Below are positions 2,673 through 48,235 of a stretch of 64,000 nucleotides of DNA, in pieces. The translations under genes were made by a program, and so were the position numbers. The DNA comes from Cycas panzhihuaensis (taxonomy: Eukaryota; Plantae; Cycadophyta), in assembly GCA_023213395.1 (NCBI GenBank), contig CM041465.1, forward strand, positions 242,055,741 through 242,119,740, in the 5' to 3' direction. How positions within the stretch are numbered: the stretch's first letter is position 1; each line of letters opens with the position of its first letter. Below the pieces are notes generated by a model. That model did no database searches. It saw only the letters and a list, made by a program, of their open reading frames with translations, and was not told the origin of the DNA.

Positions 2673-3319
2673 TATTGAGAATACAAGGTCCCAACCCTTT
2701 AACTACCATGGAGATCTATTGCATTTTTACAACTAGTTATAAAAATTGAAACTTAAAATTACATGCAAGTTCTAAAATCAGAGATTATACAATAATATGA
2801 AAATGAAAGCCAAATATCACATATGCACCCGATATAACATGGTAAAACCCTAGCAGTATGCTATGGAAACATCCACATAGGAAATGTATTGATCTTTATT
2901 GCTGTAGAATGGAGAAACAATACATATCAGTAGCAGAGTGCTCTCAGGAACAACAACTAATCACCGCCCTCATCATAGTATATTACATTACATACAACAT
3001 AATAAGAAAAAGCCCTAAATTAGGCTACATGAGAGGGACATCCAAGGCATGAATCTCAACCATAGAATCTAGGGTATTTGTATCAAACGACCTTGATTCG
3101 CTTTACATTTTAATATAGTTTATAGGGCTAATTTTTTGGGTCAGGGGCTATCACCCCCGAACCCCCTCTTAGTGGGGGATGTTCCATGCCCCCCACACCC
3201 CCCAGCGAAGGGGGCCTCCCACCCACCTTGGAACCCCCTGAGAAAGATTAGGGGTGGAAACCATGCCAAAAACATGCCAAAATTTTAGCCCTAAAATATT
3301 GTTGTCACAATATTACACA
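2673..3319 (-). repeat. 5' LTR of Tork-like copy 1
   Basis: Minus strand starts TGTGTAATATTGTGACAAC (cf. TGTTAGATAATGTGACAAC at 42850) and ends TTCTCAATA, 2 nt before the PBS. Confidence 0.9.
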
Positions 3320-4175
3320 TTCCCAATGGGGATTAGACCTTATCAGAGCTATAACCCCTCCTTCCTCCTTGCAACACAAGTTCATCTTAATTGCAATAGA
3401 GTAGTTCACTAAATGGGCCAAAGTAGTCCCTCTATCATCCATTACTATTAAGACCATAGCCATTTTCATCTACTAACACATTATCTGTTGATTCTGGGTT
3501 TCTTGATGTCCTAATCATAGATAATAGTACTCTCTTTTGTAATAAAGAGATGGATGAACTTTGTGGGAAGTTTAGGATATCCTATAAAACCTCTTCTCCT
3601 TATTATCCATTGGCTAATGGCTAAATTGAATCATTTAATAAAACCCTTATTAGCATCTTAAAGAAAGCAGTCATTTAATCCTAAAAGGATTGGCACCTTT
3701 AACTTCCTTCTACTTTATCGGTATATTGTACTTCTATTTACATAGTTATAGGGATGAACCATTCTCCCTCATGTATGGGATCGAAGTGGTCCTTCTCTTA
3801 GAAGTCAAAATCCCCTCTTTATATGTTTCTCTTCGAGGTCTCATCAATGAGGAATCCTACCACTAGGCATACCTTCTTAACCTCAAAGCCTTGGATGAGA
3901 AACACTTGATGGCTTATGAAGAGAACCTCGCCTATAAGGCCAGGGCATGAAGAATGTATAATAAATATCTCCATCCTTACCCTCTAAATCTTGGGGACCA
4001 TGTCCTTAATCTTGAGTATCTCCATGACCACTTATCCAAATTTAGGCCTAAATGGGTTGGTCCTTTCGTCAATCTCAAGAGCCTTGATAATGGTGCCTAT
4101 AAGATAGCAATTCTAGAGGGTCTTGAATTCAAGAAATCTATGAATAGTAAATTCCTAAATAAGTTCTATGTATGA
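3320..4175 (+). pseudogene. Tat-type integrase core and GPY/F region (T-A)
   Basis: QWGLDLI at about 3324, a degenerate YYP.ANG..E..NK motif and KFRPKWVGPF...LNKFYV*. Homologous to 48750-49565. Confidence 0.9.
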
Positions 4176-4889: not shown

Positions 4890-6940
4890 TCAGGAAGTTA
4901 GAATCCATGAAGGGAGGAGTACAATCATATGCCTACATATGGTAAAAACTCCCTGGAGCTCTAAAGCTTTCCTATCTAAAATCCATAGTATATAATCTCC
5001 TAAACACCATGCCCTCAAGGGGTATTGTCCCCTCATTTGTAAGATCTCTTGCTGGGTGATCACATACCTCCTAGGCTCCTGTGATATCATTGTGAGCTCC
5101 CTGCTTTACTCTCCTCATCTTGAGGCCTCCTTTGGGTCATCGTCATGGTGTGTGACCTACTATGTGATGATCTAGTGGTAATCTACTCTACTAGTTGATC
5201 TTATTTAGCCTAGATATGATCCCTCTCTCCCTCTGCTCCACAGAGCCTCTCCTCCAACATAGTGATCTAGATCGTACTCTCTATATCCCTGCTTAATTCT
5301 CCTCTCTAGGCCTCTAGCCCTCGTACCTAGCCCTACAAGGTGTTCCTCCTAACTACCAACTAGTCCCTCTCTGCCTGCAGTCCATCCAGGATGCCTTGGA
5401 GTTTACCAACCCTCTCTTGGAGCTCTTGAGACTCTACCACCTATATATCTCTAGCCTAAATCAATAGGGAGAATGCTGCTATGTGTGGCCTTGCTGATCA
5501 GGACTCCTCACTAGCCAAGATATGAGGATGTCCCTCCATGTAGACTTAGGAGAATAGCTTATATACTATCACCTCTAGTAGCCTCGCCATCTCTACTCCC
5601 CCTACCAAACCATACATACTATATGTTAGTCCAATATATATATATACAAAAATAACAAAATCTAAATAAAATCATCTAAGGGAAGCAATAAATGATCAAA
5701 AGGACATCAAGCCAGGGTAGAATCTCATCTCCTAGGATGGATAGATCCTCTACCTAGATGATCACCTCCTCTATTGCAGCTCCCCCTATTACTACCTCTA
5801 TCTCCTCAACCTCTAGTACTACCTCGCATACCACTTGGGCTGTTAGGGTATCTCCTCCCTCTAATCCTGCCTCTCTTGGGATCTCTCTATCCATGATATC
5901 TATTACCACCTCTACCTCTACCACCATGGCTACCACTACTGTTGGGCCTCTACCTGCTAGTCCTAGTGGTGGCCTATCTCCCCCTACTAGTGCTGATGGA
6001 CATGCCTCATCTCCTGTAGCTCCTAATGGTCCTACTTTATCCCCTCTATCTTCTCCATCGTCATCACTACCCTCATTAGGCTTATTTCCTAAATCTCTAC
6101 CCTTATCATCACTCTCCTAATGGATCACTTAATAGGGATCCACTATGTAGTCATTCAAGGTTAAGAGATCCAATGATATCACTGCCATCAATCGACATAT
6201 GTGGACCTAATCCTCAGTCCCTTTAAACCTCATCTGTAACATGAACCATAGGGCCCTTAGCTAAGATGGGGTGTGGTCCTCTTGGTGGTGCCACCACTCT
6301 GCAATGGTCAAAGAACTAGCACTGGAGTAATGTGTAGTAAGAAAAACCCCCTCTCTTAGCTACTCATATCTAATTAAGCTATGCAATTAGGTTGGTTACT
6401 ATCAAGGTATCCCAGTCAAACCTCTCTCTAGCCTTGCACCTCCTGATAGTGGTCATCTAACCTCCTAAGATGTCCCTGTAGTTCTATTTCTAGGATATCT
6501 AGAATAGAATAACTAGAGTAATGAGTTTCCTAATATAAGAAACTCTAGATAAAGCCATCGCCTAGACTGAGACCCCTCGCTGATCCTATTGGCTCTATCC
6601 TATAAAAAACCTAGCTACCTTCCTATGGGCAGCATTTATGCTGGGTAGTATACCTAGTGATGTTGGTGTCCTTCTTAATGGTGTTCCCAAAATCCTCCCT
6701 ATATCCCTAGGTGTGATAGAGATATCTCCCATCTATGGGAGGCGGAATACATGCCTCTACTGATCCTAGTATTAGATGATGTCAACAAGGAAGCACTAGT
6801 CATATGAATACTTTAGAGTCCTAATGACCTTCATAAGCCCACAACATCATAGAGTTATCTACTCCTACCATGTCATCATCCCAATGAAACTCATCATTGC
6901 CATACCTATGTTCTCACGATTATCAACCGTGAGAACAACC
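4890..6940 (-). pseudogene. Antisense Plant Mobile Domain (aminotransferase-like, MAIN/MAIL1-type) gene, degenerate (T-A); ends approximate
   Basis: Hand translation of 6805-6681 (minus) gives YD*CFLVDII*Y*DQ*RHVFRLP*MGDISITPRDI.RILGTP. This resembles the PMD signature ALVERWxxETHTFHLPxGEMTITLEDVxxILGLP. A homologous copy lies in T-B. Confidence 0.75.
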
Positions 6941-8200
6941 TATAGACATCAAAAAACCAATTAGAGATCTACTAATCCTCTCTACCATGTGCCATGCCCC
7001 CTTTGGGTAGTTGTATCTCTATCAGACTGAGAAAATCCATCCATTAGGGCCTCTTTTCTCTTTTTCTCCTATCTAGCCTCCACCCCACATCAAACTCTGT
7101 GGTATCACAGATATTAATATAGCCCCCATTAAGAAAATCATATTTTCTTGGTGGCCTTACTCCAAACTTCATAGCATCATGATATTTTCTATAAGGCCAT
7201 GGATATCCTTCCTAAGAAGGGAGGGGTGTGGCTTAAAAACTCAAAAAAAAAATCCTATGTAGACCAAACTTGGCCCACTAGGACTAGGGTTGCTTAATGC
7301 CCTAGTCCTGCCCCTTGCTAGGCCTCATTCAAGCTCCAAGAGGTCTTAATTGCCCTTATGGGGCCCAAAATAAACTCTAAAAACTGTAAAATATCCATTA
7401 GATATAGTCGATAAAATGAAATAGCTAGGGGATTATTCAATCATTGGATCAGGACTAATCATTGCCATCTCATCTCTACGATCTTGATGGCTATCCTTGC
7501 TCCTTGATCTAATGGTTGGATCTCTCAATGGGTTCTCTTGAATGCTAGCATAGCCTTACTACATAGAGGGAAGGGCTCCAGATCTCTCATGGGACTCGTG
7601 AAAATGAACCTTATTTTGACCCTTCTCCCCTTTATATATGCAGGGTTGCCTAGGAGTGCCATCTCCTTTCTCCTTTCCATGACAACCCTTAGGATTATCT
7701 CATTGTCCTCACTCACTTTGTCTTCAGGGTCTGACCCTTATTTCACTCCTATAGCCTCTATTTTATTTCCTTTTGGTGAATTTGTGATGACCCCTTTAGC
7801 TTCTTAGAGTCCCCTTCTATCTTATTTTTTGTGCCTTGCTAATATATACCCATGTGTATACTCTTTTGACTTATTTTGATGTCCTAAATACATTTTTTCC
7901 ATCTATTTGAGACTTTGAGGCTCTTAGGGGTACCCCCTCCTCCCTTCTAGGCCTCTATAGGCCCTTTTTTGACACCTGGGGGCCTTGAAAGAGTATAGTC
8001 ACCAATCTTTTCCTGCTCTTTCTCTAGATAAACTTATTTTTTAGCATGGTAGCCTGTTGTTAGGGCTCTCCTATCCTCTCATGACCATTATTTATAGCTT
8101 CTTGAGCTGTTGTAGCCCTATCACTACCCCCCTCTTTTGCATCTTAACTTTACTGTCACCATCTCTTCTATTGCTTGACTCAAACTCTATTCCTTTTACC

Positions 8201-8623
8201 ATGGTATTGCTCATCTTCACTGACAAAGGAAGTTGTGGTAATCCCAGACCTTCCATAACCATATGGATCCTTAGTGACCCCTCTGGATATGACTATATGC
8301 ATTTTAAAATCTTTCTACCTAAGGCTAGGAATAATAAAGTTGAATACACAGCTATTATCGAAGCCCTTGCTGATGCACTTTGCTTTCACCATGGCCCCAT
8401 CATCCTCTATTATGACTCTTAGATCATCATGTCACAACTAACCTAGGTTTACCAGGTGCATTGCCCATGATTAAGAGCCCTTACTTTGACTGCCAAGTCC
8501 CTTCTATCTTACTTCTATTCTATGGTTATTCAACACATTCCTTGAGACCTGAATACTAAGGCTAATGGCCTTGTTTGTTGCATCCTCGAGTCTCATCTGC
8601 TTCTCTTAGATGATCCCCCCTAG
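8201..8623 (+). pseudogene. Stand-alone RNase HI (additional/archaeal-type RNase H, aRH) ORF of T-A, 140 codons with internal stops
   Basis: accATGg start. One frame reads MVLLIFTDKGSCGNP...RNNKVEYTAIIEAL...ILYYDS*IIMSQ...QHIP*DLNTKANGL, matching the DG..GNPG, TNN.AEY, DS and HIPR..N..AD motifs. Confidence 0.88.
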
Positions 8624-9118
8624 ATAGCCTAATGGGATGCCTGATCACCTAGGCTCTAGGATCATCCCTTCTATTATTGTGATCCCTTTACACATCTAAA
8701 AGTAGGCCACTAATAAGGTTAAACTACGATGACCACCAGGTTTATTTCTTCACTCTGTCCTTTATACCATCTGTGGTATGAGGCCCTTGCACTTCAACTC
8801 TCTACATGTATAAATCTTTTGCTCATATTTATTTATCAATTATTCTTATGACATTGTATGGTATCTATCTTTCACAAGGGTGATGGGGGTAATCCCCTCC
8901 TCCCCCCATTCTTTCATACCAGACTCATAGGCGATGCATGGGTAGCCCCCATGTCGCTCCATTCCTTTCCTTGTGCACGTGATCTGCCATGACACCTACC
9001 ACTCTCCTTGGATAACGATACTTTTTGCATTAGTGGATGATAGTAATCTCTTTATATTGACAACATTTTCCATCGCTAGATGCTCTCGAGTGATGAGGCT
9101 CTACTGCCAAGTGGTAAG

Positions 9119-12100
9119 TGTTTCCCAACTATCAGGAATGGACATAGATAGTGCCTCTTAGGTAGGCATAGATATACATCTCTATCCTTTCTTGTCATTT
9201 ACTTTAGGATGTGATGAGATGTTTGATGATTATATTTTATATGACATTATTGCATGTATGGTTGAGATGCTTGGTTTACCTGCCCATTCTTGTGCCTCTT
9301 ATTATGATCCAACCTATGATGACTCAGGACCATCATCCTATGGCACCATACAACCCCTTATGACACCTCCTTAGTACTCTTGGGTACTCATGGGCCCCCA
9401 TATCTCACTTTTTGTTCACTATTAGCATTATACATGATCCCTAATACCTCATTTAAGGCTTTATCACCCTTGTATATGTCATTCATTCCTCATTGAGGCC
9501 TTTATTACCCTCTTTTACACATTTGTGAAGCCCCACCAATGCCTAGAGGTCCTCTAAAGGCCTTACTATTCTAGCATGCCTCTCAGTTGTGCCCTAGGAT
9601 CCTTCTTTTAGGGGTCCCCTAGGCTTCCTTTTTTTCATCTTGTATTTTATTCACACCATGATAATATTCGTGGTACCGCAATAAACTTTATGGTACTGCA
9701 AAGTTTGTCGTAAGGTGACTATCCATTAACTTTTGTGGCCTGGCAACAACCATTTTCATATTTATTGCAAAGTTGACATATGGTAGGACATTATTTCCTA
9801 ACTATAGTGAACCCTAATCACTCAGGAAACCTAATTTGGGCATAAAAACCCAATTCTGAGTTCATTCTACCTCTCTTGGCTCTTATACGAAAGGAAAAAT
9901 GCCTCCCACCTATGCTTATGGTCTCTCCTTCTATTCTTCTATTCTCCAAGGGGAAAACCCTAGAACATAGGTCTATACTAGCTCTTCTCTAGTAGGTCTT
10001 CCTTCCATGGTGCTCACTCTAGTTGCAACAATAAGTTTTGCAAGGTTTTGAGTCTCATTCTTGCCTCCAAAAGGATCCCTTCTCCACCTAGCAAGAGGGA
10101 TCCTCATCCTTTCATTGGTGCATGAGGTAACATCTACTTTACTTCAATTTTTGTGATTGTATTAAGTTTATTTCTTATTGTTCTTTCTTTTGGAAAATAT
10201 ATTTAGTATATATTTCCATTTATTTCAAGTTTTGCATGCATCTTCCTCTCTTTTTGGGTGTCTAAAAGAAGACAAACTCTTCCTTTCTCGTTGATTACAC
10301 CTTCATATCCCTTGGGTTCTTCTTGGGACATAAGTAGGTTGATTGTTATATTCCTTTGAGAGGAGAAGAGGAGTTCATGGCTACGGTTCTAACCCTTACA
10401 ACCATATCCTCCAGGGCAGCCCCCTACCTCTCCTAGTTTTCTTACTCCATATCCATCCTACATACCAAGAAACTCATTAGCTGAGGGCCTCTACTAGGTG
10501 TAGCATTTGTAGCCCCTTGTAATGCCCACAACCATCTCTTATATGCACTATTTGGCAGCAAGTCCCTTCATATGATTAACCATTTTATGAGATTTCTATT
10601 TCCCTTGCATATCTTGCAAAAGTTGCAACATTGCAACTTTTGCAACATTTACACTTTTTTTAGCTTTTACAACTTCTTGATCCTTATAAGTTGCATCACT
10701 TTTATTTGCTTATAATTATAAATCCTCTCCCAACTTATTTCTTAGAGTACCCAAGCACATAGGAGGTAGATTGTTTGAGGGAGGTATCCATTCTAAGGCT
10801 CTCCTTTCTCTTACCTTTAAAACTCTCCCTTTTCCCCCTAAATATTACTTGGAAACATTTAAGTATACAATGGGAAGATTGAGAAGTGTATTGTTTCTTT
10901 TCTTTCAAAACATTAAGCAAGTTTATATTTCATTTTGATGAGCATACACACACATACACATACACACACACACCCATATATGCATGCACATGTATAGTAT
11001 TACTTGTTGGAAGGTTTTATCCACAAGAAAACTCTACCTACTTTGAGTAAGTAAGATCGTGTTGGAAGATACGTATATCTCATTTACATTTGTTTCCCTT
11101 TGAAACTTTCCTTTAAAGTTCTTGCTCTTTTGTAATACATTATAGGGAAGGTAAGGGAGACCCACCTATGGTTTTGTCCACAATGCCAACCATGGCTTGG
11201 AGCATAAGGTGACTAACAAAAGGAAGACAACGAAGGAAAGAGAGGCACTCCATCGACTAGCTTGTTTCTGGGTGCACCTCTTCCAACCTTCCTCTTCTTC
11301 CTTATTCCTTTTTCCTCCTTTTCCCTCAAATAGGAAATTGGTTGCATTTACACATTGCTTGCAATCATTTTTTTTGCTTACTTACATCCATCTAAAGGAA
11401 AGTATAAAGGAATATCATCTATATTTGCTCTCTTGATCTTTGCATTAGTGTGTATTGCTTGGTTCCTCCTTTTCTCTTGCATGAGCATGAAAATGTGTAA
11501 CTTGAACTAGTGCATCCCTCATTTATCTCCTAAAAGGAAAGTGATAGAAGGGGATTTCTTTTCTTTATCACACCCTCCTCTTTTATTCACTTTGCATGTA
11601 TAAGAGTAGTAATGAGAAAGGGAACTTGGGCTTTTGATAGTCATCCTTCTTCCATGCATCATTAAGGAAAGTTACATAGGTCATCCATACTCTTCCTCTC
11701 TTTTACACCCTCTTTCTTCCTTCATTTAATTCTTTTTCTTGTTGATAAAGATAAAAGAGAGAGAGGATAAAAGGAGAGAGAGATAAAGTATCTTTTGAGT
11801 TGCATTTACTTAGCATTGATACTTTATATCTTTATACTTTCTTTAAACAAGACTAAAACACTTCCCAAACCATTTAGTATGATTAGTCAGGTTGCCTTAT
11901 TTAACCTAAACCCTAGAGGCATTCCTTTAGGTGATCTTTGGAAAGACACACCATTAGTCCTATCTTCTTTTTAGATTTGGCTCCCGCATACCAAATCCCT
12001 TTCACATCTTCTAACCAACCATTGCCCTCTCTTATTCCGTAGGTTCCTACCCTATTAGGGCTTGCATCCTCTTTTTCCCTTCTTCCAAGAAGAGAGATTT

Positions 12101-12373
12101 AATCCTCCCTATCCTTCCTTTACTTGTTAGGATAGGAGAGTATGGTACTTAGTGAACTGAGGATGCCCTTTCCTAACTCAAATCTGAGAAGGTACCTACC
12201 AAAAGAGGAAGTCTTGTGTGTTATTTGTGGGTCTCTAAACCTGTATTTTAATGCATAGAAACCTTTTGTGGGTGATCTATCTTCTTACCCTCAAGGACCC
12301 TTAAGCCCTTGGCATAGTGATAGTGTAGGCTTAATATCCTTATCCTTAGTGACCCCCCAGAGGTGTGCTTGCA
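9119..12373 (+). repeat. 3' LTR of T-A (about 3.25 kb)
   Basis: Starts TGTTTCCCAACTATCAGGAATGG after the purine-rich AAGTGGTAAG and ends AGGTGTGCTTGCA. Both termini match the TSD-validated T-B termini (TGTTTCTCACCTACCAGGAATGG and AGGTGTGCTTCCA). Confidence 0.82.
10943..10995. repeat. Imperfect (CA)n/(TA)n microsatellite within the T-A LTR
   Basis: catacacacacatacacatacacacacacacccatatatgcatgcaca. Confidence 0.8.
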
Positions 12374-21617: not shown

Positions 21618-24237
21618 TGTTTCTCACCTACCAGGAATGGATTGGGATCTTATTACATAGGTAAGTTTAGGTATATATTCAATATTACATCTTTTACTAG
21701 CTTTCCTTTACAATCATTATTTTATATGATGTTTGTATAATTTCCTAAGAGCTTGATTGATATGTTTGCATGGCTTGCCTGTGCATATTTTTGCCTATGA
21801 AAACTAGGACTCTAATCCAATGGAATTATTAAGCCCCCATAGTAATCTCTTAATTAGCAAGAGGTCCCTCACATGTCCTTGTAGCTTAGTTTTGGGTGAG
21901 TTTTGGTTTGCTTCTACTCTTGTGTTGCATCTTTTTCTCCTTCTTCCCACTTTGTCTATTACTCAGTCCATCTAGGGTAATCTATTAGGAATTTTAGTGG
22001 ATGGATGTATTCCATCATCCATATATTGCGAGACTTCTTTGTATTTTCATTAGTATTAATTACCTAGTCTCCATCTATACTTTGGCACCCTGATTGCCAT
22101 CATTCTCATGAGGTTTTAACATAGTTTATTGATTTTATCATGTATTTTTGCCAGTTTCCAATGTATGAGATGGCCTAAGACTAATTTTTAGATACTTAAG
22201 GACGAGTTCCAATAGTAGTCAACCCCTCCCCTTGCTTCACTAATATTTATTAGTATTTCCTAGTTTTTATAAACGTTTACAATTTTGTTGCTGCCTCATT
22301 GAGTTTCTACTTACCCCACTATGATTTTTGTGCCCCATGAATATATTTTTAGTGCTGTGAATATATTAATAGCATGACTGTTATGATTTTAAATACAACT
22401 AACAACATCTAAAATCACATTTATTACACCTTTGACAAGATTCCTTGCCTTGAGGCTAGGCTAGATCAAGGCCCAATAGTCATGTAGAGTGTTTGCAACT
22501 CACAAAACTAAATTTGGAGTTATTATTCATCATCATTCTCATATCTAGCGAGCTACTATATTTTCTTTTCAAGCTTTCTCAAGATAACATATGAAAAATT
22601 AGACCTTCAATAGGGAAAAGAAGGTAAAACCAAGATCTAGAAGGTAGGAGGACCTCCTTAAGCTACAACTACAACCAAGGAGTGTATTCTCCCCACCTAT
22701 AATCAAGAATTTCATCTAAAAAGCCCCCTTTTAAGGAATACAAAAGCTTATAATCACCAAAATCTCTTCACCTTTCACCATTATTTCTTCCTTCCAAGTG
22801 TGTAAGCTCCATTCATAGTTTTTTTCCAGTAAAATACTAATGTTTTGCTTCCCATTTCATCAATTTTCTATATGTTTTGCTTGTTTCTTTAGTTTAAAAG
22901 CAATAATACATTTATTTGGTAGGTTTACCTTAAAAATCTTGGAGAAACATCCTCTCATTGGTTGTAAACCCTTTCCAACCCTTAGTGGAGGGTATAAATA
23001 GAATCTTCGCTAGTTAGAGGAGTTTTTGGGAAGGGAAATAGGTCAAAGTTCCAACTTTTGGATCCCATTTCCATTGGATAATTCCCTTCCAGCACCACAA
23101 GGAATTCTACTTCATGGTGCATGCACATCCTTCACTAATGTAACATTTTGCAACCATTCCATGGGAAAAATAACCCATAGCTCACCATTGAGATTTTTTA
23201 TCTCACTTCTACCTCAAATTTTCAAACCAAGAGACCCATAAAACTAGCTGATATCTTTTGATATTTAGGAGATCATAGCCACATAGAAAGGCAACACCAT
23301 TCTGAGGCACCACCCTCTCTTCTTTTTCCATTTTATTTTGCTTCTTGCATATTGAGATCTTGGAAAGGAAGGTAGAAGTGTTTGGTTTCTTTATAAATAA
23401 TAAAAAATATTAGTAACATTTGTATAAGTATATTTGTAGAGTATATGTTACTTGTGGGAAAGTTTCTTTGCTTAATCTTATAGGTAAGAGGCTTACTCAT
23501 ACTTGCAAAGGGGTCTCCATTACAAGGTAATTAGATTTGAGTCCTAGCATCATATTTAGTTTATACTTCCATTTTGTCACTTCTATGCTTTCCTTTCATT
23601 TCCCTTTGCAACTTTGTATTTGAGTTTGGGGAAGGTAAGGAAGCCCCTTCTTGATCTTAACAACATTTGTGGTAATAAAGGAGATCGTGTCATCGGTAAG
23701 AGAGGAATGTGCATGGAAACAACTGTAAGATTAGCATCAAATGTTGCATATTGGGTGCACCCTTTCAAAACCCATATTCCTCTTGCTTATTTCTTCCTAA
23801 ATTCATTTATTAATAAATTGTAACCAAAATGTAAGGGTTAATTCACATATAGCACATTCTTGGTTTTCTTCAAAAAGAAAAGACATACATACATTCTCTC
23901 CCTCTTTCCCCTTTCATAAAAAGAGCATAGTAGGGAGGGATTATTTCTTTTATTTATACATGCATATTGCATATAGAAGTCAAAGTTACAACATTAAGTA
24001 AAAAGTGTTTCTTTCCTCTTCTAAAAGAAAAAACATTGCATAAACTTCATTCCCTCTTTCTCATTTTGCATATAAGCATGCATGTTGGAAAGAAATTGGG
24101 AAACATAATGAATGAGTTTCTTTTTGCATAGACAAGGAACATAACTAAAAAGGGAAATATTGCATGGACTTCACACCATTTTACCATTCTTACATATGCA
24201 CATGGATGTAGAAAATGAAACTAAGGAACATAGTATA
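21618..24237 (+). repeat. 5' LTR of T-B (3' end deleted together with the PBS and leader)
   Basis: Colinear with 39645-42203. Similarity stops at AACTAAGGAACATAGTATA and the sequence jumps into Pro-rich gag. TATAAATA at 22993-23000. Confidence 0.9.
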
Positions 24238-27100
24238 CCTCATCTACAACATGTAGGCTCATCACTGTATGTCCTCCTAGGTTATACATCTCAACCTTGG
24301 AGCCATGGAGGGCCTAACCCTCTTTCGACTGATGGGGTGGATCCACTCCATTCCTATGGGGTTGTGCCTCCTATGGGTAGACCTTATGGACAAAACCTTG
24401 TTCCTTATTCTACACCATCCATATGTATGACCTCATATATAACTCCTTTGTAAGGGGGATCCATTCCCCCTCTTATTCCTTATTCTTATGCGTCAATCCC
24501 TTAGGGAGCACACCCACATGTTGTTGCTACACATGTGGCACACCCTCGAGGTGAGGTGATGCCTTCTTACCTACCTTCATATTTGACCTATCCCAATATT
24601 GGGATGGTCAACCATCTTATCCTTTATATGGTGGGAGCAAGTACCTATGCCCATCTCCATCTATCCCTCAAGTTCATCCCTTAGCTCAACTAGGGGTATG
24701 ACCCTTCGTTGACTACTAATCAACTCCCCTTTCCATTAAGGCCCTCAGGACTAACCTACTGCCTCACCCTCTCGAAGTGCCTAAATTTAATGGCACTTCA
24801 TTACATGACCCTACTAAGCATGTAAAAGGCTTTACCATGGCATGCATAGATTTCTAGGCCTACAATCACATTCTAATAAAGTTGTTTCTAAGGTCCTTAT
24901 AGGGAGATGCCCTAAAGTGGTTTTATCACCTCCCTACCCACTCAATTCATACCTTCCAACAACTAGTAGATGAGTTTGTCAACTATTTTGATATATCTCA
25001 CCCTTTTCAGAGTGGGGTTAAGGCCCTGATTTTCCTTAAATAAGGTCATAATGAACTCAGTTATGATTTTGTCTATTATTTCCATGATCTCCTCCATTCC
25101 TCTAAGGCCATGTTACTTGAGGAGTTGAAGTGAGATCTCTTAGTTAATATCCTTTTCCCTAAATTTCACATTAAAGTCCTTAAGATGGGGTCAATAAATT
25201 ATGACTCTGCCATAGCTAAATGCTTGGTATTAGAGGTAATTGAATTCCAAACTAGTCTCATAAAGCCTCTTAGGCAGTGATAACATTATAAGGTAGTCCG
25301 TCCTTCATGTGACCAAAGAAACTAATAACAACAACCTCCAAAGTTCCTAGCAACATAACTAATAGGACTTTGGACCCCTTGATCTTGGTTGTGCATTCCT
25401 TTAAATGTATGATTAAGGTGCTAAAACTCTAGCCTTCCCAATCCTCTCTAGAATCTCATAGACCCATCCACTAGGGCTCCCTCATCATGCCACTTAAAGG
25501 TGGAAAAGCCCATGCTTCTTAAGGGAAGAAAGCAAGACCTCCTCCTAAGAAGAAATGGTATTTTGTGCATGGGGAGTGACTCTATGGGGACTCACAATGC
25601 TAGACACAACACCATGATCTTACATTGTATCATGATGCTTCCTCCAAAGGGCTTCCAAGCCTAATTTAGACCAACCTGTCCATAGGGATCCCTTCCTTAA
25701 CCATGGGGAATAAGATCAATCTATGCAAAATAGGAGGGTGAGGAATATGGGGCAATCCCTTAACCCTTCTTCTAACCAAATGAAGGGGAAGGGGCCATGG
25801 GAACCATCCTCTATAACAAGCCCTAATGCTTAACACCCCTCATCCTCTCAACCTAAAAATAAGGGGAAGAGACTGATTTATATGCTTGAGACTACCTCCC
25901 TATACCCCATTACAGGGTCTCAAGCAGTGAAGGAAGCTACCGAAGCCTTTACCTCCTAACAAAACCCTTTTGTAGGTAATCTTCGTGTAGAGATCCCTAG
26001 AGTCTTTAAGACCATTCCTATCTGTCTTAGAGACTATGACTTCAAGAGGGCCCTTCCCCAACCCATAGGAAAAGGGAAGGCCTTCTCTATCCTTAAGAAG
26101 TTGCACTATATGTCTATAGGTATGTCTATGATGGATGTCTTGCAGAGTTGCCCTGAGTAATACACTCTTCTTTTACAAACTCTTAGTCAATAAGATGCTC
26201 TCATCCACACTATAAGTACCACTTACCATGGACCTCCTATCATCTCATTTGATCCCTAAGATCTCCCATCTCCTAGTGAATGGGAAAAGTTTTGGCATTA
26301 CCCATTTGTCATTTATATTGACACCCTTAACTTTACCATAAAGAGGACCATCATAGATAATGGTTCCTCAGTTAATGTTATGCCTAAACACATGCTAAAA
26401 TAGTTAGGTATAGTGGCCCTTAAGTTTGTCCCTTAGAAATACCAAGAATATGATGGAAGTGAAAAGTCTTCTTTAGGGACAATCACCCTCTCACTCATAT
26501 TAGGAGAGAAGACCATTTCCATAAATGTTATTATGCTTTATATTGACATCAATTATAACCTCCTATTAGGTTGACCATGGTTCAACCAAATGAGAGCTAT
26601 TTACTCCTCACACTGGGGGTAACTTAAGTTTATCTATAAAGGATAAATTAAGGTTATCACTCATGAGAGTCTACCCTCTTGTATACTTTATCCTACTTAC
26701 TAAGCTATCTTTGATGTTGAAGATAGTGATTCTGATGAGGTTATCCCCTCATTGGGGAATCTGTTTTAGGGGGCCAGGTCTCAATAGGATGATCCTCACA
26801 GGGAATCTATTTTAAGGGGCTAAGTATTAATAGGATGATCCCCTACCTCAATATGAACCTAATCTAGTTAGGTTTACACCTATTGGTAAAGGTATCTATG
26901 GCTATCTAGCTATAATGAGTGACTCTAAGTCAGATGTTGAGGATCATGAGCCTCCTCCTTGACATGTCACTCTAATTTCCCATATACCTAGGAAGGAATT
27001 CCACATGGACCTTCCCTCTCATAATGATTCTTCTACATCTCCTAAGTCATTGGCTTTAAACCAACCACTCTTCTCATTTTCCTGCTCTATGAAGATGACT
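24238..27100 (+). pseudogene. T-B gag and protease, degenerate; end approximate
   Basis: EVPKFNG...DPTKHVKGF, KLF.RSL.GDALKWF, PR IIDNGSSVNVMP at about 26350, YNLLLG*PW. Confidence 0.82.
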
Positions 27101-27544
27101 CCTTATAGGCATACACATTGATATACCACTCATAAGAGTGTCTCACCCTTATGCCTTAGACCCTCATTCAGGACTAGATCCTATTACACCTCTATGAAGC
27201 CTTGCCATGTAATCAGTCATGTGTTAAGCCCCTTGTATAAGTTTGGTTTTGACCAAACTCCTCTTACTTATAGGCCTATCCATGCTAGGCCTACCCTTCA
27301 TGGTTAATTCTTTCTCCTTCTGAGTAGAAACAGAGCTAGTACTTCACTTTGACATGAGCCTAAACTACCTTTCAAATATAATATCAAATTCTCTCACTAG
27401 GGGAATAGTGTATATTCAAGCTTCTAGTGACTCTGTTTGTTATCTAGATGGCTATACTCCTTTCTAAAGGTGTTTTCTGTCCCCTTAACAAATGGATCCC
27501 TTCTTTTAGTTTATGAGTGGTGGTGAATGTGTCACCATTGGGGC

Positions 27545-27842
27545 TGAAAAGGGTTAATGTCATAAGGTCATTACATTAGTTGATTATTTCTAAAAAGGGT
27601 CTTAAGTAAACTTTAAATTAGATCACTTAAGTGAAATACACTTTCATGTGCATTATGTGTAATTTCATTTCACCTAAATCTAATGCTTCCTCTCTCAATA
27701 TAAAAGTAAAAGCTCAATGGAGGAGATTCATTCTTACCTCCCCATTTTGTGAGAGCTACTTTCTTTCTCTCAAGTCTCTCTTGCTCCCATGTTTGCCTTT
27801 GTGTTTAGTATATGGAGATGAAGGATAGATCCACTCTTTTCA
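27545..27842 (+). repeat. 5' LTR of copia B (298 bp)
   Basis: TGAAAAG...CTTTTCA inverted termini; direct repeat of 34877-35174. Confidence 0.95.
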
Positions 27843-29898
27843 TGTGTTATCAGAGCTTACTTCCTTTATATTCCTCACTTACACTTGTAATGGATCCATC
27901 ACTTCCTTCTCCCCCACAATCCATGTGGTGAAGGAGATTATGAAAGTGAATTTAGAAATATTTTCAAGTTATTATGATAGCATATTTTGTATTATTTACT
28001 TTCCATTTATCTTTTACAGGTTTGGAAGCATAATATAAGGAGTTTAAGGCCCAAGGATTCCAATCCTTTGATGGTCATTCATGCTATCTCATTCTTCTTT
28101 TTCTTTCCCCTCTTTTTGTCCATTTAACAAGGGGAAATGCTATCGAAAATTTTCCAACATTTAGAAGAATGATTGTAAGGGGAGGTTTTACCATCTTTTT
28201 TAAAGAATTTCAAGCCATTTAAAATATCCATCATTGTATTCTCTCACCTTGCCCATATTGGGGTCCTGGTGATAAAAAAATAATGGAAATTTCATATGCT
28301 ATCATGTGTTAATGAGATATTAGCAAGCTGAAATTTCTGCAGAAATATAATTTGATTGCTGAACTTCATAGGTATGCAAAATCTTCTACATAGCTCCAAT
28401 TGATGTGATCCTAATTGTCAATGATGAGGCTATGAGTTTGCTTTATATCACAAAAATTAGCACTCAATTTGGATGTCGTATGAGGAAGTTATTGCTATTT
28501 TAGTGAACAATAATTATTTTTAGTAAGAATTTTGGAAAAATATAATTTCCTAACTTTGTGGGGCTGCCAAGAACTTTCTAGAACTTATTTAGACCTGATT
28601 CCACTTCCTGAAGATGAAGCTCTAAGTCTAGTTTGCAGCTCAAAAATTGGCATTCCATTTTGACATCATGGGAGAAATTTATTACTAATTTAGTGAAGAC
28701 TACTTTCTTTTGTATTAAAAAAAAAAAAGAAGTGAAGAAAATTTCTTCCTTCTTTTTATAAGTCTTAAAATCCCATTGTAAAAGTGAGAAAAAAAACACC
28801 TGGATCAAAGCAATATCCAATGTCTTCTCTCACTTATTATCATTGCATTTCAACACTCTAAAATCACTCAAAGTAAGCACTCTAAATACACTTCAAGTAA
28901 ACACTCCAAGCAAGCACTCCAAAAGCACTCCAAGCAAGCATTCTATTTTCAGTTAAATGCACATTTGATGCAATCTGATAATCTTTTCACTCTTCCTAAA
29001 AGGAACGCATCATGTATGTTATTTTCTACCATCTTGTACCTATTCACATACTTTCCAAGATTGAGATACCTTGGTTGGCAGAATGCCATGCCATAAAGGA
29101 GGTGTGGGTTTCAAGTTGGGACTAGACTAATCCGAAATATTGGTGAGGTTTGGTTAGCCATATCATCGTGCCTCAATCAGGGATCATCCTGATAACCAAC
29201 TAGGAAAACTGAAACTTGAATATCAGATAAAAATATACCCAATCTAATATCTATCATAGCCATACGTATGCACGTACCACTCTTTACAAGAGGTATATAG
29301 CTACTCATTGGTAAACTAGGTGAGGATTGGGAGTACCTATGCTCCGTTGTGACTTGGATTTCATCACTAAGAACAATTGCGGGTATCACGAATAAAGGCC
29401 AAATTAATTCTACTAAAAGTCTAGGCATCCCTTCAACAACCTCAACTATATGTTGGACATAAGTTAGAGGTTATTGGGTTAATTATGCATCCTACATTTG
29501 AGTTTCAAGTTGTGTAAACCCAATGATGTCAGTTTCTACATTGACCTATAATCTTGTATATTGATCACTTACTTATTTGTAAAAAGTGATCCATAGTATA
29601 ACCACAATCATAGTGCTTCTCATATTCCTGTTGCATCAAGTTCATATTTGACACAAGTGTTAGTAGCTAATTTTTATTATAGTGCTTATCATATTCCTGC
29701 TGTGTCAGGCTAATATTTGTCACAAGTGTTGGTGACTTTTCTCTAAGTTGCTCCCTTCATCTTTGAGCAACTATTTTCACTTCATCTTCCTTCTACTACA
29801 CTATTTCATTACATTTCTTATTTATAAATAGTGATTGTTCATTTATTGCCATCACTTTTATAGTCTCTTGTTCATTTCTTCCCTTCTAAAAAGTCACC

Positions 29899-32800
29899 AT
29901 GTCTTCACAGTTTAAGCAAAATGTGAACTGCATTCTAAAAAGGAAAGAAAATTAGGACATGTGGTTCACTGGTGTCAGAAATACTATAAAGTATGAAGGT
30001 CTATGGAGAGATCACTTGTAACCTACACCATCTGTTGTAGCTATAGCTACCTACAGGAGGTGCTCCAACTGCTCCCACTGAAGTTGTAGCTAAACAGTAA
30101 TGGGAACTTGATGATGATAAAATCCATGCAGGGATACTACTTGTCACTGATTATTCACTGCATTATCTTATTGATGAAGCTATACATAATATAACATAGA
30201 AAGTTCTTAAAGTTTTTAATAAGAACTTTGACACTAAATAAGACTTAGAATTTGTTCACTTAATGCTAAAGATGAACAAATTAAAAATGCAGAAAGGACA
30301 CACATATGAGACAATCAATCTCCTTCATCCAATTAAGCAAGCCATTGATAAAGATTTTAAAACTCAATGCATTACATGGGATTTCTTAATTTAGTCATGT
30401 CTCCATATCCTAGATTATAAAAATCTATTAGGAAGTCTTTAATCTAGTGGCACTTTGAAGACCCTAAACTTTGAGGCTCTTGCTGATAAGTTCATTGAAT
30501 TTGATAAGACCTTTGATACCAACTTTTCCACTATATCAGATCTAGTTGATGCTGCTTTTGAAGTGGAAGAAGATCTTTGTTATATCAAAAATCAAGGTTA
30601 ATACTCTCTTAGAGGTGGTAATTCTCGTGGAAGGGGAAGAGGTAGACAACAAAGACAATGCCTTCTTAGTCAACAGGCTCCTCAACTCCAACAAAAATAG
30701 TCTCAAGGCCAAGGCTAAAATAATCAACCTGGACCTAGATCCAGTAATGAGAGATAATACAACTAGCCTAATACTTGGACTGGAAATCAAACATTTGTGT
30801 ACCAAAGATGTAATAGAAAAGGATATTATGCTAAAAATTATAGAACTACCACTAATAAACTACCATGTTATCAATAGCGCCATATTACATATAATGTTGA
30901 TAATACTTCTTTTGAAGATGCTTTTGGTGGAACATAATTTGCTCATGAATACCTTTAAAGAATTGGGACCACTTCATCAAATGTTATTGATAGATCCATT
31001 AAGTATATTGAGGCTCATTGTGGCTATGCTTATTAACTTTTTCCTTCACCACTTGGAGTTGCAAATAGTGCCACCTCAAATACTTCATCGTGTATGGATA
31101 CTGGAGAAACACAACACATGACTTATCATTGCCAGTTCTTTTAGGATTTTGAATTTGAAGTTCGTGGTGTTATATACATGGCTGACAAATTATCTCAGCT
31201 AGTCGAAGGACTTGAAATTGTTTACCTGAAACTCCCAGGCCTTCCATATTTTACACTTGTTGATGTTTTATATATTCCTGCTCTAAAGTAGAATCTGCTC
31301 TCCCTGTCTACCTTGTCTCTCGTGGATTTGATCTGAGTGTAACTGCAAACAATCAAACTCTCTATGTCATTCACCCTCCTTCAAATGTTGTGGTTATGAC
31401 CATAATTCTTGATGGAAAACGTTTTTGCCTAACTATCTCACCATCCTCTAAAGCCAACTATGTTGATGATGACTCTACTTTTACCAAAACCTTGACTCCT
31501 CAAAAGTTATCCCAAGTAGCCCTATGGCATGCTCATATGGGCCATATAAAAAATCATTATTTAAGAGAACTACAATCCACTCTTCCTAGTTTACCTAGGC
31601 TCTCCTCTAAGCCCTTTAAATAGGAAGCATATATTATTGCCAAATCTCAAAGACAACCCTTTCCTCATAGTCAGTGGAAATCTTGCCAACCTTTGCAACT
31701 TGTGCACTCAGATATATGCAGTCCTATTCCCATCCCTTCTCTTAAACATAAGTGGTACTATATTACTTTCATTGATGATTTTACCAAGAAAGTATGGGTT
31801 ACTTTTATTGCAAAGAAAGATGAAGTTTTTTTTATGTTTCAAGCTTTCAAGGCCCACATGGAAAATGAATCTAGATTCAAGATCAAAATACTCAAGACTG
31901 ATAATGGTGGTGAGTACACATCCAATGAGTTTGAATTGTACCTATGTCAACATGGAATCAAACAATAGACCACTGTTATAGGTACACCCCAGCAAAATAG
32001 AGTTGCCTGGCATATGAATAGGACCATCATGAATATGGCTCATGCTATGCTTATATATAAGAATGTCCCTATCTATATTTAGGCCGAGGTTATCTAGACT
32101 ATTGTATATTGCATCAACACTATTAATCCCTCTAAGCTTAGCCCCTCTCCACATGAAATGTAATATGGACAAACCCCCTCTATCTCCCACTTCAAAATTT
32201 TTGGCTCTACTTATTATGCTCATATTCTAGAGGAACATAGAAATAAGTTCCAAGATAGAACCATCAAAGGCATCTTTGTCAGATACCCTATGGATAAAAA
32301 GGGATACAAGGTTTTCATACCTTCACAGTGAAAAATCATCATCACTAGAAATGTTATCTTTGCAGAGACTGAAGATCAATTACTCAGACTTGACTCCAAG
32401 ATGCCTTCATATCGATTTAATGATGCTACTGAATTTAATGTCCAGATTCCAAAATTTAGGGAGGGAGATGCTGAACAGTTGCTCAAAATCTTGGAATCTG
32501 ATAATAGAGCCTCGGAGGATACAAGCTGTGACTCCTAACATATGTGTATACATCCAGCACCGTCATTTGTGAACAACCAAGTTGACAAAGGCAAAGCCAT
32601 AGTAGAAGGATCATCTTCTCCAACATCTATGGCTGGCCCATCTTCTCCAGCATCATCAACTTCGTCCATGCCAAATATTTCACATGATCTTTTTCAGGAT
32701 CAAAACAAAGACCAAGAGGCTGTGGAAATGAAAACCTCATTGCCAACTCAAGTTTTTAGTGAAGCCTACCAGCTACACAAGGATATGTGACCAGATAAGA

Positions 32801-34443
32801 TAGGCAAAACTGGCACTAGAAGTGCCCATAGAGCAAGGATACATAAATCACTTTCTGTTGAGCTTGAACCAATAGAACTACACCTTACTCTTAATGAAAA
32901 GCCCCTAATGTACCAAGAAGCTATAAAGTATGCATCTTAGAGAAATGCCATAAATGAAAAGCACCAATCTCTTATTAAGAATAGTACATGGGAGCTTGTT
33001 GATCTATCACTTAGAAGAAAAGTAGTTTAAAATAAATGGGTGTTTAAAAATAAGTACAGATCAGATGGAACCCTAGAAAAACACAAGGTGAGGTTGGTAG
33101 CAAAAGGAGTCATGCAAAGGGAAGGCATCAACTACACTGAAATCTTTGCTCCTACAACCAAGTGGCCTACAATCAAAACTCTTATAGCCTTGGCTACTCA
33201 ACAGGGTTGGAAAATCCACCAACTCAATGTTAAGACTGCATTTCTCAATGGGGACCTTAAAGAAGAAATTTACATGGCTCAACTAGAAGTATACGAGATT
33301 GTCAGTTAGGAGAATAAGGTTTGCAGGCTCAAAAAGTCCTTGAATGGTCTAAAGCAAGCCCTTCGTGCTTGGTTTACCAAGTTGTCTAAAAGAATGAGGC
33401 AACTTGGATATGAGGTTTGTGACTATCAAGATATTGATGCAACATTATTCATCAAGCACCAAAATGATAAAGTCACCTACCTCTTAATCTTTGTAGATGA
33501 TATGCTAATAATCAGGAATAATGAATAGGTAATCAGTTAGTTGAAGAAGGACCTTGCTAAAACTTTTAAATTATTTGACCTTGGGTTAATGAAATATTAC
33601 TTGAGAATTGAAGTAACTCAAAAGAATGGCAAAATCTTTCTCTCTCAAGAAAAATATATCAACGATCTTCTAACAAAGTTTAAGTTGGAAGGTGCTTGAC
33701 TAGTGGATACACATATGGAGCCTAATATTAAACTCTCAGCTAATGGTGACATTAGGGAGGCAGACACAATACTTTATAGGCAACTTGTAGGTAGTCTCAT
33801 CTATACTACCAACATAAGGCTGGATATTACATACTCTATCAACATTCTTGTAAGATTCATAATAAATCCTAAGTAGAATCATTGGTAAATTGTAATATAA
33901 GTGTTAAGGTACCTAAAGATGACCAACAAATATGGTCTATTATATGAACCCAATGCAGAATTTAAACTTCATGCATATATAGACTCAAACTTTTCTAGAG
34001 ATAAAGACACAAGAAGATCTATGTCTAGGTATGTAACATTTCTAAGAATAGCACCAATATCATAGAGATCCAAATAGTAGAAGATAGTTGCAGACTCAAC
34101 TGTCAAAGTTGAGTATATTGTTGCTTCTAAGACAAGCAAGGGGGTGATATGGCTTAGAAAATTATTGAATATATTAAATGCCACCCAAATAAGTTCTACT
34201 AGCTTACATGTAGATAATTAATCTATAATCTAGGTGGATAAAAATCCTATATTTCATGATTGTACCAAACATATAAGTATGAAAGTCCACAGGATTAGAG
34301 AACCAATTCATGATGGCACAATTCAACTAGAGTACTATCCCATAATAGATCAAGTGGTTGATATCTTCACCAAACCACTGAAGAGGGTGAAGTTTGAATA
34401 GTTTTGAAAGCAACTTAGCCTTAGGGCCTCCATCTCTAACTAA
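29899..34443 (+). pseudogene. Copia B gag-pol, degenerate
   Basis: MSSQF start, PR MDTGETQHMT at about 31095, INT LVHSDICSP and KTDNGGEY, RT KVRLVAKG...LNVKTAFLNG...IFVDDML, RH TKHI...DQVVDIFTKPL. Confidence 0.92.
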
Positions 34444-34876
34444 TTGAAGGAGATGACAATAGGACCATCATACTCTATCTCATTCGTGAAAACCCCTTGT
34501 GGGCACAGAAGGACAAGAGTAAGTATCTGCTCTATCCCATTCATGAAAACCCCTTGTGGGCGCGAAAGGATAAGGGTTGTATCATTTTGGAAAATTGAAA
34601 CCTGTGAAAACTTGAAAGGGAATGGGGGATGACCAAATGGTATATGGAGACTTAGTAGATTTTAGCTACAAAATTTATTATACTGATTAGCTATCTAGCT
34701 TTATTTAAAGAGCTACCTAAGCCAGGTTAGTAGATTAGAAAATTTGTGGGTTTTCTTCCCCATGAGGGTTTCCAACAAAAGTGTCATAGTAGTTTGCTTT
34801 GTAAGAGGCTTAAATGAAGACCTCATGGGATAGAATAAAATAGGATGAAATGACCTTCTATGATTAAGGAGGGGAT

Positions 34877-35174
34877 TGAAAAGGATTAGTGTCATAAGCT
34901 TATTACATTAGTTGATTATTTCTAAAAAGGATCTTAAGTGAACTTTAAGTTAGATCACTTAAGTAAAATGCACTTTTATGTGAATTATGTGTAATTTCAT
35001 TTTACCTAACTTTAATTCTCCCTCTCTCAATATAAAAGTAAAATCTCAATGGAGGAGATTCATTCTTACCTCCCCATTTTATGAGAGCTACTTTCTTTCT
35101 CTCAAGTCTCTCTTGCTCCCATGTTTGCCTTTGTGTTTAATGCATGGAGATGAAGGATAAATCCACTCTTTTCA
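34877..35174 (+). repeat. 3' LTR of copia B
   Basis: Direct repeat of 27545-27842. Confidence 0.95.
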
Positions 35175-35629
35175 GGGGCATGTCTCTACACTCACATTTG
35201 GTTCCTTTGCTAGGAGGAAACTCTATCTATTTTTTAGTGTAAGTTTCCACCTAGAGAAGGCTTCTTGATATAGATCCTATCCCCTCTTGATGCTCCTAGG
35301 GTATTCATACTAATTTTTGCTCTCTTATCTATTTGGGTTGCTATTTTTCCTTCTAAGGGAAATGTGATATCCTTGCCTAAGGACCACACGAGATTACCTA
35401 ATATACTAGGTGATCATATGTACCTTATATGAGTTCCATACCATTTAAAGAAGATATTAAAGAAAAAATATATAACATAATAAGATCTATGTATTTGTGC
35501 ATCCATACATCCATAACCATCAAAACAAATCAATAATTTATATCAAAATGGGATACTAATATAGTCCCCACCTCTATATATATACATAATCATCTATAAT
35601 AGTACAAAATATGGTGGAATAATATGTCC

Positions 35630-38735: not shown

Positions 38736-39155
38736 ATGGAACTACTCATCTACATAGTTGGTGGTAGTCATGGTAACTGGGGACCCTTTGTTATAGCTTA
38801 GATTATTTCTAATCCCTCTAGGCATGATTTTATGTGTTTTGGTATTTATCTGCCTGAGGCCATGAACAACGAAGTATAATATATGGTTATTATTAAAGCC
38901 TTAACTGATGAACTTCATTTCCATCATGGTCCCATCATTCTATATTATAATTAGATTAGAGTGTCTTCGTTGACCCAAATCTATTAGGTCCTCTACCCTC
39001 GGTTGAGATCCCTTGCTTCAACTACCAGCTCCTTGTTGTCTTACTTCTCCTCGATTAATATTTGATACATCCCTCATGATCAAAATATTAATATTGATAG
39101 TCTAGTTCACCTTATTCTTGAGTGTCATATCTAGATTTTAGATGACTCCTTATAG
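38736..39155 (+). pseudogene. Stand-alone RNase HI (aRH) ORF of T-B
   Basis: MELLIYIVGGSHGNWGP...AMNNEV*YMVIIKAL...HHGPIILYY...IPHDQNINIDSL. Same ATG and stop positions as 8201-8623. Confidence 0.85.
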
Positions 39156-48200: not shown

Positions 48201-48235
48201 CTTAGTAACCCCCCTAGAGGTGTGCTTCCAGTTGT

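What the first reader, a model, noticed from the sequence alone, without database searches (positions are those of the whole stretch)
4890..8623. Divergent two-gene cargo cassette 3' of pol: antisense PMD gene head-to-head with a stand-alone RNase HI
Seen: between the INT stop (4175) and the 3' LTR (9119), T-A carries a minus-strand PMD-like gene and a plus-strand 140-codon RNase HI ORF with its own ATG. They are separated by about 1.25 kb containing a minus-strand TATATAAA (7638-7631). The same layout recurs in the diverged T-B (35630-39155), so it is an inherited module. Established: Tat elements carry an extra RNase H (between RH and INT in Ogre/Retand; as I recall, after INT in gymnosperm TatIII). 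PMDs occur in some gypsy and MULE elements, and host PMD proteins MAIN/MAIL1 affect silencing. Inference: the element had an internal, possibly bidirectional promoter driving a chromatin/anti-silencing factor and an RNA:DNA-hybrid nuclease independently of the polyprotein. Each part is known separately. I do not know of the head-to-head cassette being described, but I cannot check.
Basis: partly seen in the sequence, partly recalled or inferred. Interest (0 to 1): 0.78.

Follow-up and report, generated by a model that had tools for sequence, protein, structure and literature searches.

The report
Retrotransposon with back-to-back accessory genes
This is a decayed copy of a known gymnosperm-type Tat retrotransposon that carries, behind its main enzyme gene, a backward-facing likely plant-mobile-domain gene and a separate RNase H gene; both parts are published, but their back-to-back order suggests a testable way for the separate RNase H to be expressed.

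Summary
The layout is real and inherited, but both genes are broken in both copies and most of it is published. After the integrase stop (4175), T-A has a minus-strand gene and then a 140-codon archaeal-type RNase H (8201-8623, four internal stops) before the polypurine tract and LTR. T-B is co-linear at about 55% identity. Both genes were under purifying selection (pN/pS 0.42 and 0.37; integrase 0.32-0.37). The RNase H call is firm. The PMD call is probable: Pfam E 0.002-0.008, below cut-off, T-B only.

A separate post-integrase RNase H ORF is structure #3 of Biryukov and Ustyantsev 2023. An antisense PMD gene in this lineage is in Ustyantsev 2015. Not found in the texts I read: PMD lying between integrase and RNase H, intron-like gaps in the PMD gene, and a gag-protease-only family (T-B) that lacks pol but keeps both genes.

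A minus-strand core promoter has modest support. A plus-strand promoter has none; splicing is the main rival. Anti-silencing is untested.

The parts
3318..4175 (+). T-A integrase, C-terminal part; pol stop at 4173-4175; cut on the left by a copia element
   Evidence: Weak Pfam rve/rve_3/SH3_Tf2-1; 52-61% amino-acid identity to the T-C integrase
4890..5601 (-). Likely last exon of the antisense gene, coiled-coil-like; broken; exact end uncertain
   Evidence: pN/pS 0.51 and 0.63; codon periodicity p 0.004; heptad signal p 0.02 in T-A, 0.12 in T-B; weak HALZ in T-B
5602..5728 (-). Intron-like gap (127 nt in T-A, 132 nt in T-B); shared acceptor AG; no canonical donor at the phase-matching place
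   Evidence: About 50% U on the coding strand, identity at background, z 1.2; sequences and GT phases
5729..6941 (-). Probable plant mobile domain (about 6936-6241) plus acidic linker; broken; frameshift near 6235 in T-A
   Evidence: 44% amino-acid identity to T-B without gaps over 232 codons, pN/pS 0.42; PF10536 E 0.002-0.008 in T-B only
6942..7200 (-). Poorly conserved region upstream of the PMD core: intron-like or fast-evolving N-terminus; shared AG at 6942, shared ATGs at 7200 and 7180; start codon not settled
   Evidence: z 1.1, no codon periodicity; no clear protein match in any frame pair; shared motifs
7598..7638 (-). Candidate core promoter of the antisense gene: TATA-like box at 7638-7631, initiator-like TTCATTTT with +1 at 7605
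   Evidence: Same 33-nt spacing in both copies; TATA alone at chance level
8066..8079 (+). 14-nt pyrimidine tract identical in both copies, about 120 nt before the RNase H ATG: splice acceptor tract or promoter Y-patch
   Evidence: Longest exact match in the spacer
8201..8623 (+). Archaeal-type RNase HI (aRH), own ATG, 140 codons, stops at codons 74, 82, 90 and 115
   Evidence: Pfam RVT_3 E 5.9e-10; family profile vs PDB 3U3G E 2.7e-21; pN/pS 0.37
9107..9118 (+). Decayed polypurine tract
   Evidence: Position next to the LTR; most relatives read purines at 9112 and 9115
9119..12373 (+). T-A 3' LTR, about 3.25 kb, TG...CA
   Evidence: Both ends align with the T-B LTR ends
21618..48230 (+). T-B: gag-protease-only relative, 5-bp target-site duplication GTTGT, 13.6 kb without its two nested inserts (27545-35174, 42849-48200)
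   Evidence: LTRs 84.9% identical
26960..27350 (+). T-B: gag-protease stop joined within about 350 nt to sequence homologous to T-A just after the pol stop; no RT, RNase H or integrase
   Evidence: bridged by several diverged contigs
35627..37560 (-). T-B copy of the antisense gene
38736..39155 (+). T-B copy of aRH; 6 internal stops; keeps one of the four acidic active-site residues

Best explanation
T-A is a decayed post-integrase Tat retrotransposon whose 3' internal region holds two genes outside pol: a likely spliced antisense gene for a probable PMD plus coiled-coil protein, and a sense archaeal-type RNase HI that was likely made as a free protein of about 140 residues and would supply, in trans, the RNase H activity that the element's degenerate native domain lacks during reverse transcription. 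The antisense gene was likely transcribed from an internal promoter starting near 7605. The RNase H message likely started in the same spacer, running the other way; this is the weakest step. Shown: order, strands, homology of the RNase H, selection, decay. Inferred: promoters, introns, action in trans, any role of the PMD protein (likely a nuclear regulator of the element).
For: Pol ends at 4175 and the next 225 nt show no codon periodicity (p 0.28), nor do the three spacer blocks (p 0.26-0.73) or the stretch after the RNase H (p 0.9), while the PMD core (p 5e-10) and RNase H (p 7e-4) do. pN/pS is 0.42 [0.35-0.51] for the PMD minus frame against 0.63-0.97 for the other five frames, and 0.37 [0.28-0.50] for the RNase H. 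Met sits in the same column in 5 of 5 same-family sequences. The frame upstream of it is not conserved. T-B lacks pol yet keeps both genes, and diverged contigs share that join. The spacer is conserved above background (z 3.1-4.5), carries a shared TATA-like plus initiator-like pair on the minus strand, and turns T-rich on the plus strand to the right of about 7500 in both copies. In the related T-C pol no aRH lies between native RNase H and integrase. Literature: separate aRH ORF and degraded native RH in all aRH-bearing Tat structures (PMC10508981); own promoter for the antisense gene of maize Grande (PMC7264820).
Against: No expression evidence was obtained. No plus-strand TATA is shared by the copies. 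The promoter motifs were found after the fact in two decayed copies; two shared initiator-like sites occur on the minus strand and four on the plus strand. Neither copy has a canonical donor for the intron-like gap. Six stop columns are shared in the PMD core, which could mean early death of the gene, although parallel decay is expected: CG observed/expected is 0.13-0.14 and 27 of 30 PMD stops are TAG or TGA. T-B keeps only one of four acidic active-site residues. Two sequences cannot place the selection on either branch. The starts of P0006 and P0013 are a gene caller's choice. PMD is below the Pfam cut-off.
Confidence: 0.5

Rival explanations
1. The RNase H is a free protein but is translated from a spliced, env-like subgenomic RNA that starts in the 5' LTR and lands at an acceptor about 100 nt before the ATG. 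The spacer promoter then drives only the antisense gene and there is no bidirectional promoter.
For: The best-conserved spacer motif is a 14-nt pyrimidine tract at 8066-8079, followed by TTATAG directly in T-B and after a short gap in T-A; neither copy has an ATG between that AG and the start codon. Spliced 3' messages are reported for barley Bagy2 (PMC7264820). No shared plus-strand TATA.
Against: The AG does not fall in the same alignment column in both copies. The same motif fits a leader intron or Y-patch of an internal promoter. T-A's 5' end is outside the window and T-B's is partly deleted, so no donor could be examined.
Confidence: 0.3
2. The whole antisense gene is removed as a 4-kb intron and the RNase H is spliced onto the end of Pol, giving the C-terminal aRH drawn for lineage III in 2015.
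For: PMC4408406 places lineage III aRNH at the very C-terminus of the putative Pol. One frame is open for 52 codons before the ATG in T-A.
Against: That upstream frame is not conserved in T-B; the Met is conserved in 5 of 5; the T-B family has no pol; the same group later called it a separate ORF; a search for longer relatives of P0007 gave 3 hits among 289 candidates, none with RT or integrase domains (weak evidence).
Confidence: 0.08
3. The pair is a counter-silencing module: the RNase H clears RNA:DNA hybrids at element loci in the nucleus and the PMD protein interferes with MAIN/MAIL1-type silencing, neither acting in reverse transcription.
For: Host PMD proteins act in silencing, and anti-silencing was speculated for MULE-captured PMDs (PMC5418596). 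A pol-less family keeps both genes.
Against: No direct evidence here. PMD function is called unknown (PMC7156037). Degradation of the native RNase H in aRH-bearing Tat elements points to a role in reverse transcription.
Confidence: 0.12
4. The two genes are an accidental nested insertion or host capture in one copy.
For: The window is a nest of insertions.
Against: Two families about 45% apart share the order from just after the pol stop to the LTR; all 30 bins are covered in 4 of 4 DNA runs by 33,780-38,900 contigs each.
Confidence: 0.01

Closest known systems
Tat structure #3, 'post-integrase' (clusters Tat H and I; TatIII of Neumann 2019; lineage III of Ustyantsev 2015)
   Same: Ty3/gypsy element, archaeal-type RNase H downstream of integrase as a separate ORF, none between native RNase H and integrase, antisense PMD gene in the 3' part, 5-bp target-site duplication.
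   Different: The 2015 text puts aRH at the Pol C-terminus and describes the lineage III extra ORF as PMD without a coiled coil. Here about 4 kb with the antisense gene separates integrase from aRH, a coiled-coil-like exon follows, and T-C and T-B have a stop after gag-protease. The 2023 and 2026 texts do not mention PMD in what I searched or read. Figures were not available, so the order may be drawn there.
Retand/Grande elements with antisense 3' ORFs (GENE23, TRP28)
   Same: Long pol-to-3' LTR region with an antisense gene; in Grande it has its own promoter.
   Different: Their aRH lies inside Pol between RH and integrase; the antisense domain is mostly TRP28; sense ORFs there encode no known domain.
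Archaeal-type RNase HI (PDB 3U3G, 4E19, 3HST)
   Same: Profile match E 2.7e-21 to 4.5e-15 over about 130 residues; the intact relative P0007 has the four acidic residues and the arginine.
   Different: Carried by a retrotransposon; both window copies are broken.
Plant mobile domain PF10536 (Gypsy PMD-A; host MAIN/MAIL1)
   Same: Only Pfam hit of the minus-strand core, at model positions 1-64.
   Different: Below the curated cut-off; clade not testable; no functional link to silencing shown.

Membership tests
TatIII / Tat structure #3 | aRH downstream of integrase | tested here: met
   Integrase ends 4175, aRH 8201-8623, LTR 9119
TatIII / Tat structure #3 | aRH in a separate ORF outside pol | tested here: met
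   Pol stop, 4 kb gap with an opposite-strand gene, own conserved Met. This is shown at DNA level only
TatIII / Tat structure #3 | No aRH between native RNase H and integrase or before RT | tested here: inconclusive
   Met for the related T-C pol; T-A's own RT and RH lie outside the window
TatIII / Tat structure #3 | Placement in Tat H/I by RT phylogeny | not testable with these tools
   No REXdb reference set; the large supplements of PMC6317226 could not be read
TatIII / Tat structure #3 | 5-bp target-site duplication (92% of 39 elements) | tested here: met
   GTTGT on both sides of T-B; figure; T-A's left end is outside the window
TatIII / Tat structure #3 | tRNA-Arg or tRNA-His primer-binding site | not testable with these tools
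   T-A's 5' end is outside the window; T-B's LTR end and primer site are deleted
TatIII / Tat structure #3 | Antisense 3' extra ORF with PMD | tested here: inconclusive
   Antisense coding shown; PMD below cut-off
TatIII / Tat structure #3 | Degraded native RNase H active site | tested here: inconclusive
   T-C lacks the first Asp when read by eye against a recalled motif; the PDB search gave no alignment; the copy is decayed
Archaeal-type RNase HI | Four acidic catalytic residues plus arginine | tested here: inconclusive
   All present in relative P0007; T-A keeps D8, E48, D72, has a stop at the arginine site and Asn at the last; T-B keeps only the last
Ogre / Retand | aRH between RH and integrase inside Pol | tested here: not met
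   aRH lies after integrase in T-A; none in T-C pol
PMD PF10536 | Score at or above the gathering cut-off of 34.9 bits | tested here: not met
   Best 18 bits in T-B, none in T-A, on sequences with stops read as X

The most novel reading that the evidence does not exclude
Post-integrase Tat elements run a self-contained, bidirectionally transcribed accessory operon-like cassette: a spliced PMD-coiled-coil regulator one way and a free RNase HI the other. Non-autonomous gag-protease-only families drop RT, RNase H and integrase but keep the cassette, so reverse transcription in this lineage is split over two separately expressed proteins and the RNase H is supplied in trans.
Probability: 0.2. Interest if true: 0.65.

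Novelty: new member of a known kind. Interest (0 to 1): 0.36.

Why it matters
Biryukov and Ustyantsev 2023 state as an open question how aRH can work from a separate ORF while the native domain still degrades, and a 2026 paper calls the pol-versus-separate-ORF point controversial. This window favours the separate ORF at DNA level and gives concrete places to test expression: a candidate antisense start near 7605 and a conserved pyrimidine tract at 8066-8079. The pol-less family offers a natural test of whether aRH is useful without its own RT. The lineage and both genes are known, so the gain is anatomical detail.

Tried and rejected
No whole genome is held, so genome-wide copy collection was not possible. 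Sequencing runs: no RNA holder listed among 22 runs; this says nothing on expression. Word-indexed protein searches found nothing for the T-A RNase H (0 of 26 candidates) or the two-copy PMD alignment (0 of 3048). The PMD alignment found nothing in PDB at E up to 10 or in viral contigs (0 of 72 stretches). Related-locus scans with RNase H alignments gave one viral contig (L001; no match to the window in what I ran, not examined further) and one metagenome contig (L002), which reads as a bacterial RNase HI locus with one short match to the window. Earlier findings of this scan: none. The TATA box as stand-alone evidence was rejected (chance 0.45). Coding in the spacer or upstream of the ATG was rejected for lack of codon periodicity; spacer frames beat shuffles in several frames at once, which reflects DNA homology. 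dN/dS does not choose the strand for the RNase H: the opposite frame sharing third positions gives 0.44 and 0.41; homology does. The tree (7 element sequences and the 45 best other hits, the remaining hits left out) shows one group (100/97) but held no labelled plant or Ogre aRH, so origin was not tested. No structure or complex prediction was run: two stop-ridden sequences give too shallow an alignment and no intact RT partner was at hand. A language-model look-alike check of the PMD core is missing, so PMD identity rests on the weak Pfam hit.

Full report
Setting. The window is a nest of decayed plant LTR retrotransposons. CG observed/expected is 0.11-0.14 and TAG/CTA are enriched, as methylation-driven decay gives. 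No whole genome is held. Three related Ty3/gypsy pieces matter. T-A shows the end of integrase (stop 4175), a 4.9-kb 3' region and a 3.25-kb LTR (9119-12373). T-B spans 21618-48230 with a GTTGT target-site duplication and two nested inserts. T-C is the element T-B sits in, with RT and native RNase H before 21618 and integrase after 48235.

Observation. The plus-strand gene at 8201-8623 matches Pfam RVT_3 at E 5.9e-10. A search of 1.84 billion representatives gave 2879 hits at E up to 0.001; six of the best eight include the close relatives P0006, P0007, P0008, P0013 and P0015, and the other named hits are ribonuclease HI. The family profile matches solved RNases HI at E 2.7e-21. A profile built from the five relatives alone hits only T-A and T-B in the window. 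The gene has 4 internal stops in T-A and 6 in T-B. The minus-strand core (6936-6241) is 44% identical to T-B over 232 codons without gaps. Its only Pfam match is PMD, in T-B only and below cut-off (E 0.0017-0.0084). The motifs look like PMD to me from recall, which is a lead and no test.

Inheritance and selection. T-A and T-B are co-linear from just after the pol stop to the LTR. Stop-containing codons were dropped before counting. pN/pS is 0.37 for the RNase H, 0.42 for the PMD core in the minus frame (other five frames 0.63-0.97), 0.61 for the acidic linker and 0.51-0.63 for the coiled-coil-like part, against 0.32-0.37 for integrase T-A versus T-C. Synonymous sites are near saturation and two sequences cannot say on which branch selection acted. 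Six stop columns are shared in the PMD core; parallel decay is the likely cause but early loss is not excluded. In 4 of 4 DNA runs, 33,780-38,900 contigs lay on the T-A stretch at 80% or better and all 30 bins were covered; no listed contig spans the whole cassette.

Anatomy of the antisense gene. Two stretches fall to background identity with no codon periodicity: 5602-5728 (z 1.2, about 50% U on the coding strand) and 6942-7150 (z 1.1), against z 4.8 and 8.0 for the flanking coding parts (12 resamplings each). Both end in an AG shared by the copies. The first differs in length by 5 nt between copies and accounts for the frame change in T-A, but neither copy has a canonical donor at the phase-matching place. 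Introns are therefore likely, not shown. The start codon is unsettled.

The spacer. It is conserved above background (z 3.1-4.5) without coding signal. The TATA box alone is at chance level and has a mismatch in T-B. Both copies do have an initiator-like TTCATTTT 33 nt after it on the minus strand, a plausible core promoter found after the fact. On the plus strand no TATA is shared. The longest exact match is a 14-nt pyrimidine tract about 120 nt before the ATG, which fits a splice acceptor as well as a promoter patch. A bidirectional promoter is therefore possible but not supported over splicing.

T-B lacks pol. Its gag-protease frame stops where T-C's does, and homology to T-A's post-integrase sequence begins about 350 nt later. 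In one search, among the 32 pieces listed of more than 5000, records at 81-85% identity bridge the stretch (26880-27184, 26862-27166, 27126-27336, 27147-27522), and 5 of the 15 joints shown link its two sides. This points to a non-autonomous family rather than a one-off deletion. T-B's RNase H keeps only one of four acidic residues, so it may have been relaxed there.

Mechanism. Most likely the RNase H was made as a free protein and complemented the degenerate native domain during reverse transcription, while the antisense gene was transcribed from the spacer. Whether the RNase H message starts in the spacer or is spliced from the LTR is open (0.5 against 0.3). A Pol fusion is unlikely: the Met is in the same column in 5 of 5 family sequences, the upstream frame is not conserved, and T-B has no pol.

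Literature. PMC4408406 (parts 1-4 of 6 read, plus supplement legends): gymnosperm lineage III has aRNH at the C-terminus of the putative Pol and an antisense PMD ORF at the 3' end. PMC6317226 (passages and one supplement row): TatIII has aRH after integrase, 39 elements, 18% with a reverse 3' ORF; its two large supplements could not be read and may give the domain positions. PMC10508981 (whole text and a supplement search): structure #3 has aRH in a separate ORF in Pinaceae, Cycas and Ginkgo, and its function from there is an open question; that text says 'upstream of pol', while PMC13468544 (abstract and passages) describes the same structure as downstream of integrase. Passages only: PMC5418596, PMC11963269, PMC9289625, PMC5348765, PMC7156037, PMC7264820. 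Nine searches gave no text stating the integrase-PMD-aRH order, introns in the PMD gene or a pol-less family with this cassette. Figures are not held and subscription papers are missing, so this absence is weak.

Verdict. A real, inherited, now broken module of a known lineage: a new member of a known kind, with some anatomy that may be unreported. Interest 0.36.

Noticed in passing
window 21618-48230 (T-B), junction 26960-27350: Gag-protease-only Tat relative with RT, RNase H and integrase missing up to the pol stop; several diverged contigs share the join, suggesting a non-autonomous family that keeps the PMD and aRH genes.
   Followed up: partly
window 15790-19900 (T-C) and 26960 (T-B): Gag-protease ends in a stop at the same place in T-B and T-C, and in T-C a spacer of several hundred bases (plus an insert) precedes RT. 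The 2015 paper describes protease fused to Gag only for flowering-plant Tat lineages.
   Followed up: partly
window 15856-19274: A 3.4-kb insert with 307-bp direct repeats (82% identical) and no domain seen on the plus strand by eye, inside T-C; possibly a non-coding LTR element.
   Followed up: no
window 24237: T-B's 5' LTR breaks off about 650 nt short of its end and runs straight into the proline-rich start of gag; the primer-binding site is lost.
   Followed up: no
window 27545-35174: A fairly young copia element (298-bp LTRs, 92.6% identical) with a long leader of about 2 kb before gag, inserted in T-B.
   Followed up: no
window 1-3317, 42849-48200, 55445-55925, 62220-64000: Several copies, LTRs and nested pieces of one copia family at 69-89% identity.
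   Followed up: no
protein P0007: An intact 142-residue stand-alone relative of the element RNase H with the full active site, from a 563-bp public contig; its nearest named hits are prokaryotic RNase HI.
   Followed up: partly
L002:3250-6750: Unrelated bacterial-looking locus with a very long ORF of no examined function upstream of an RNase HI gene.
   Followed up: no
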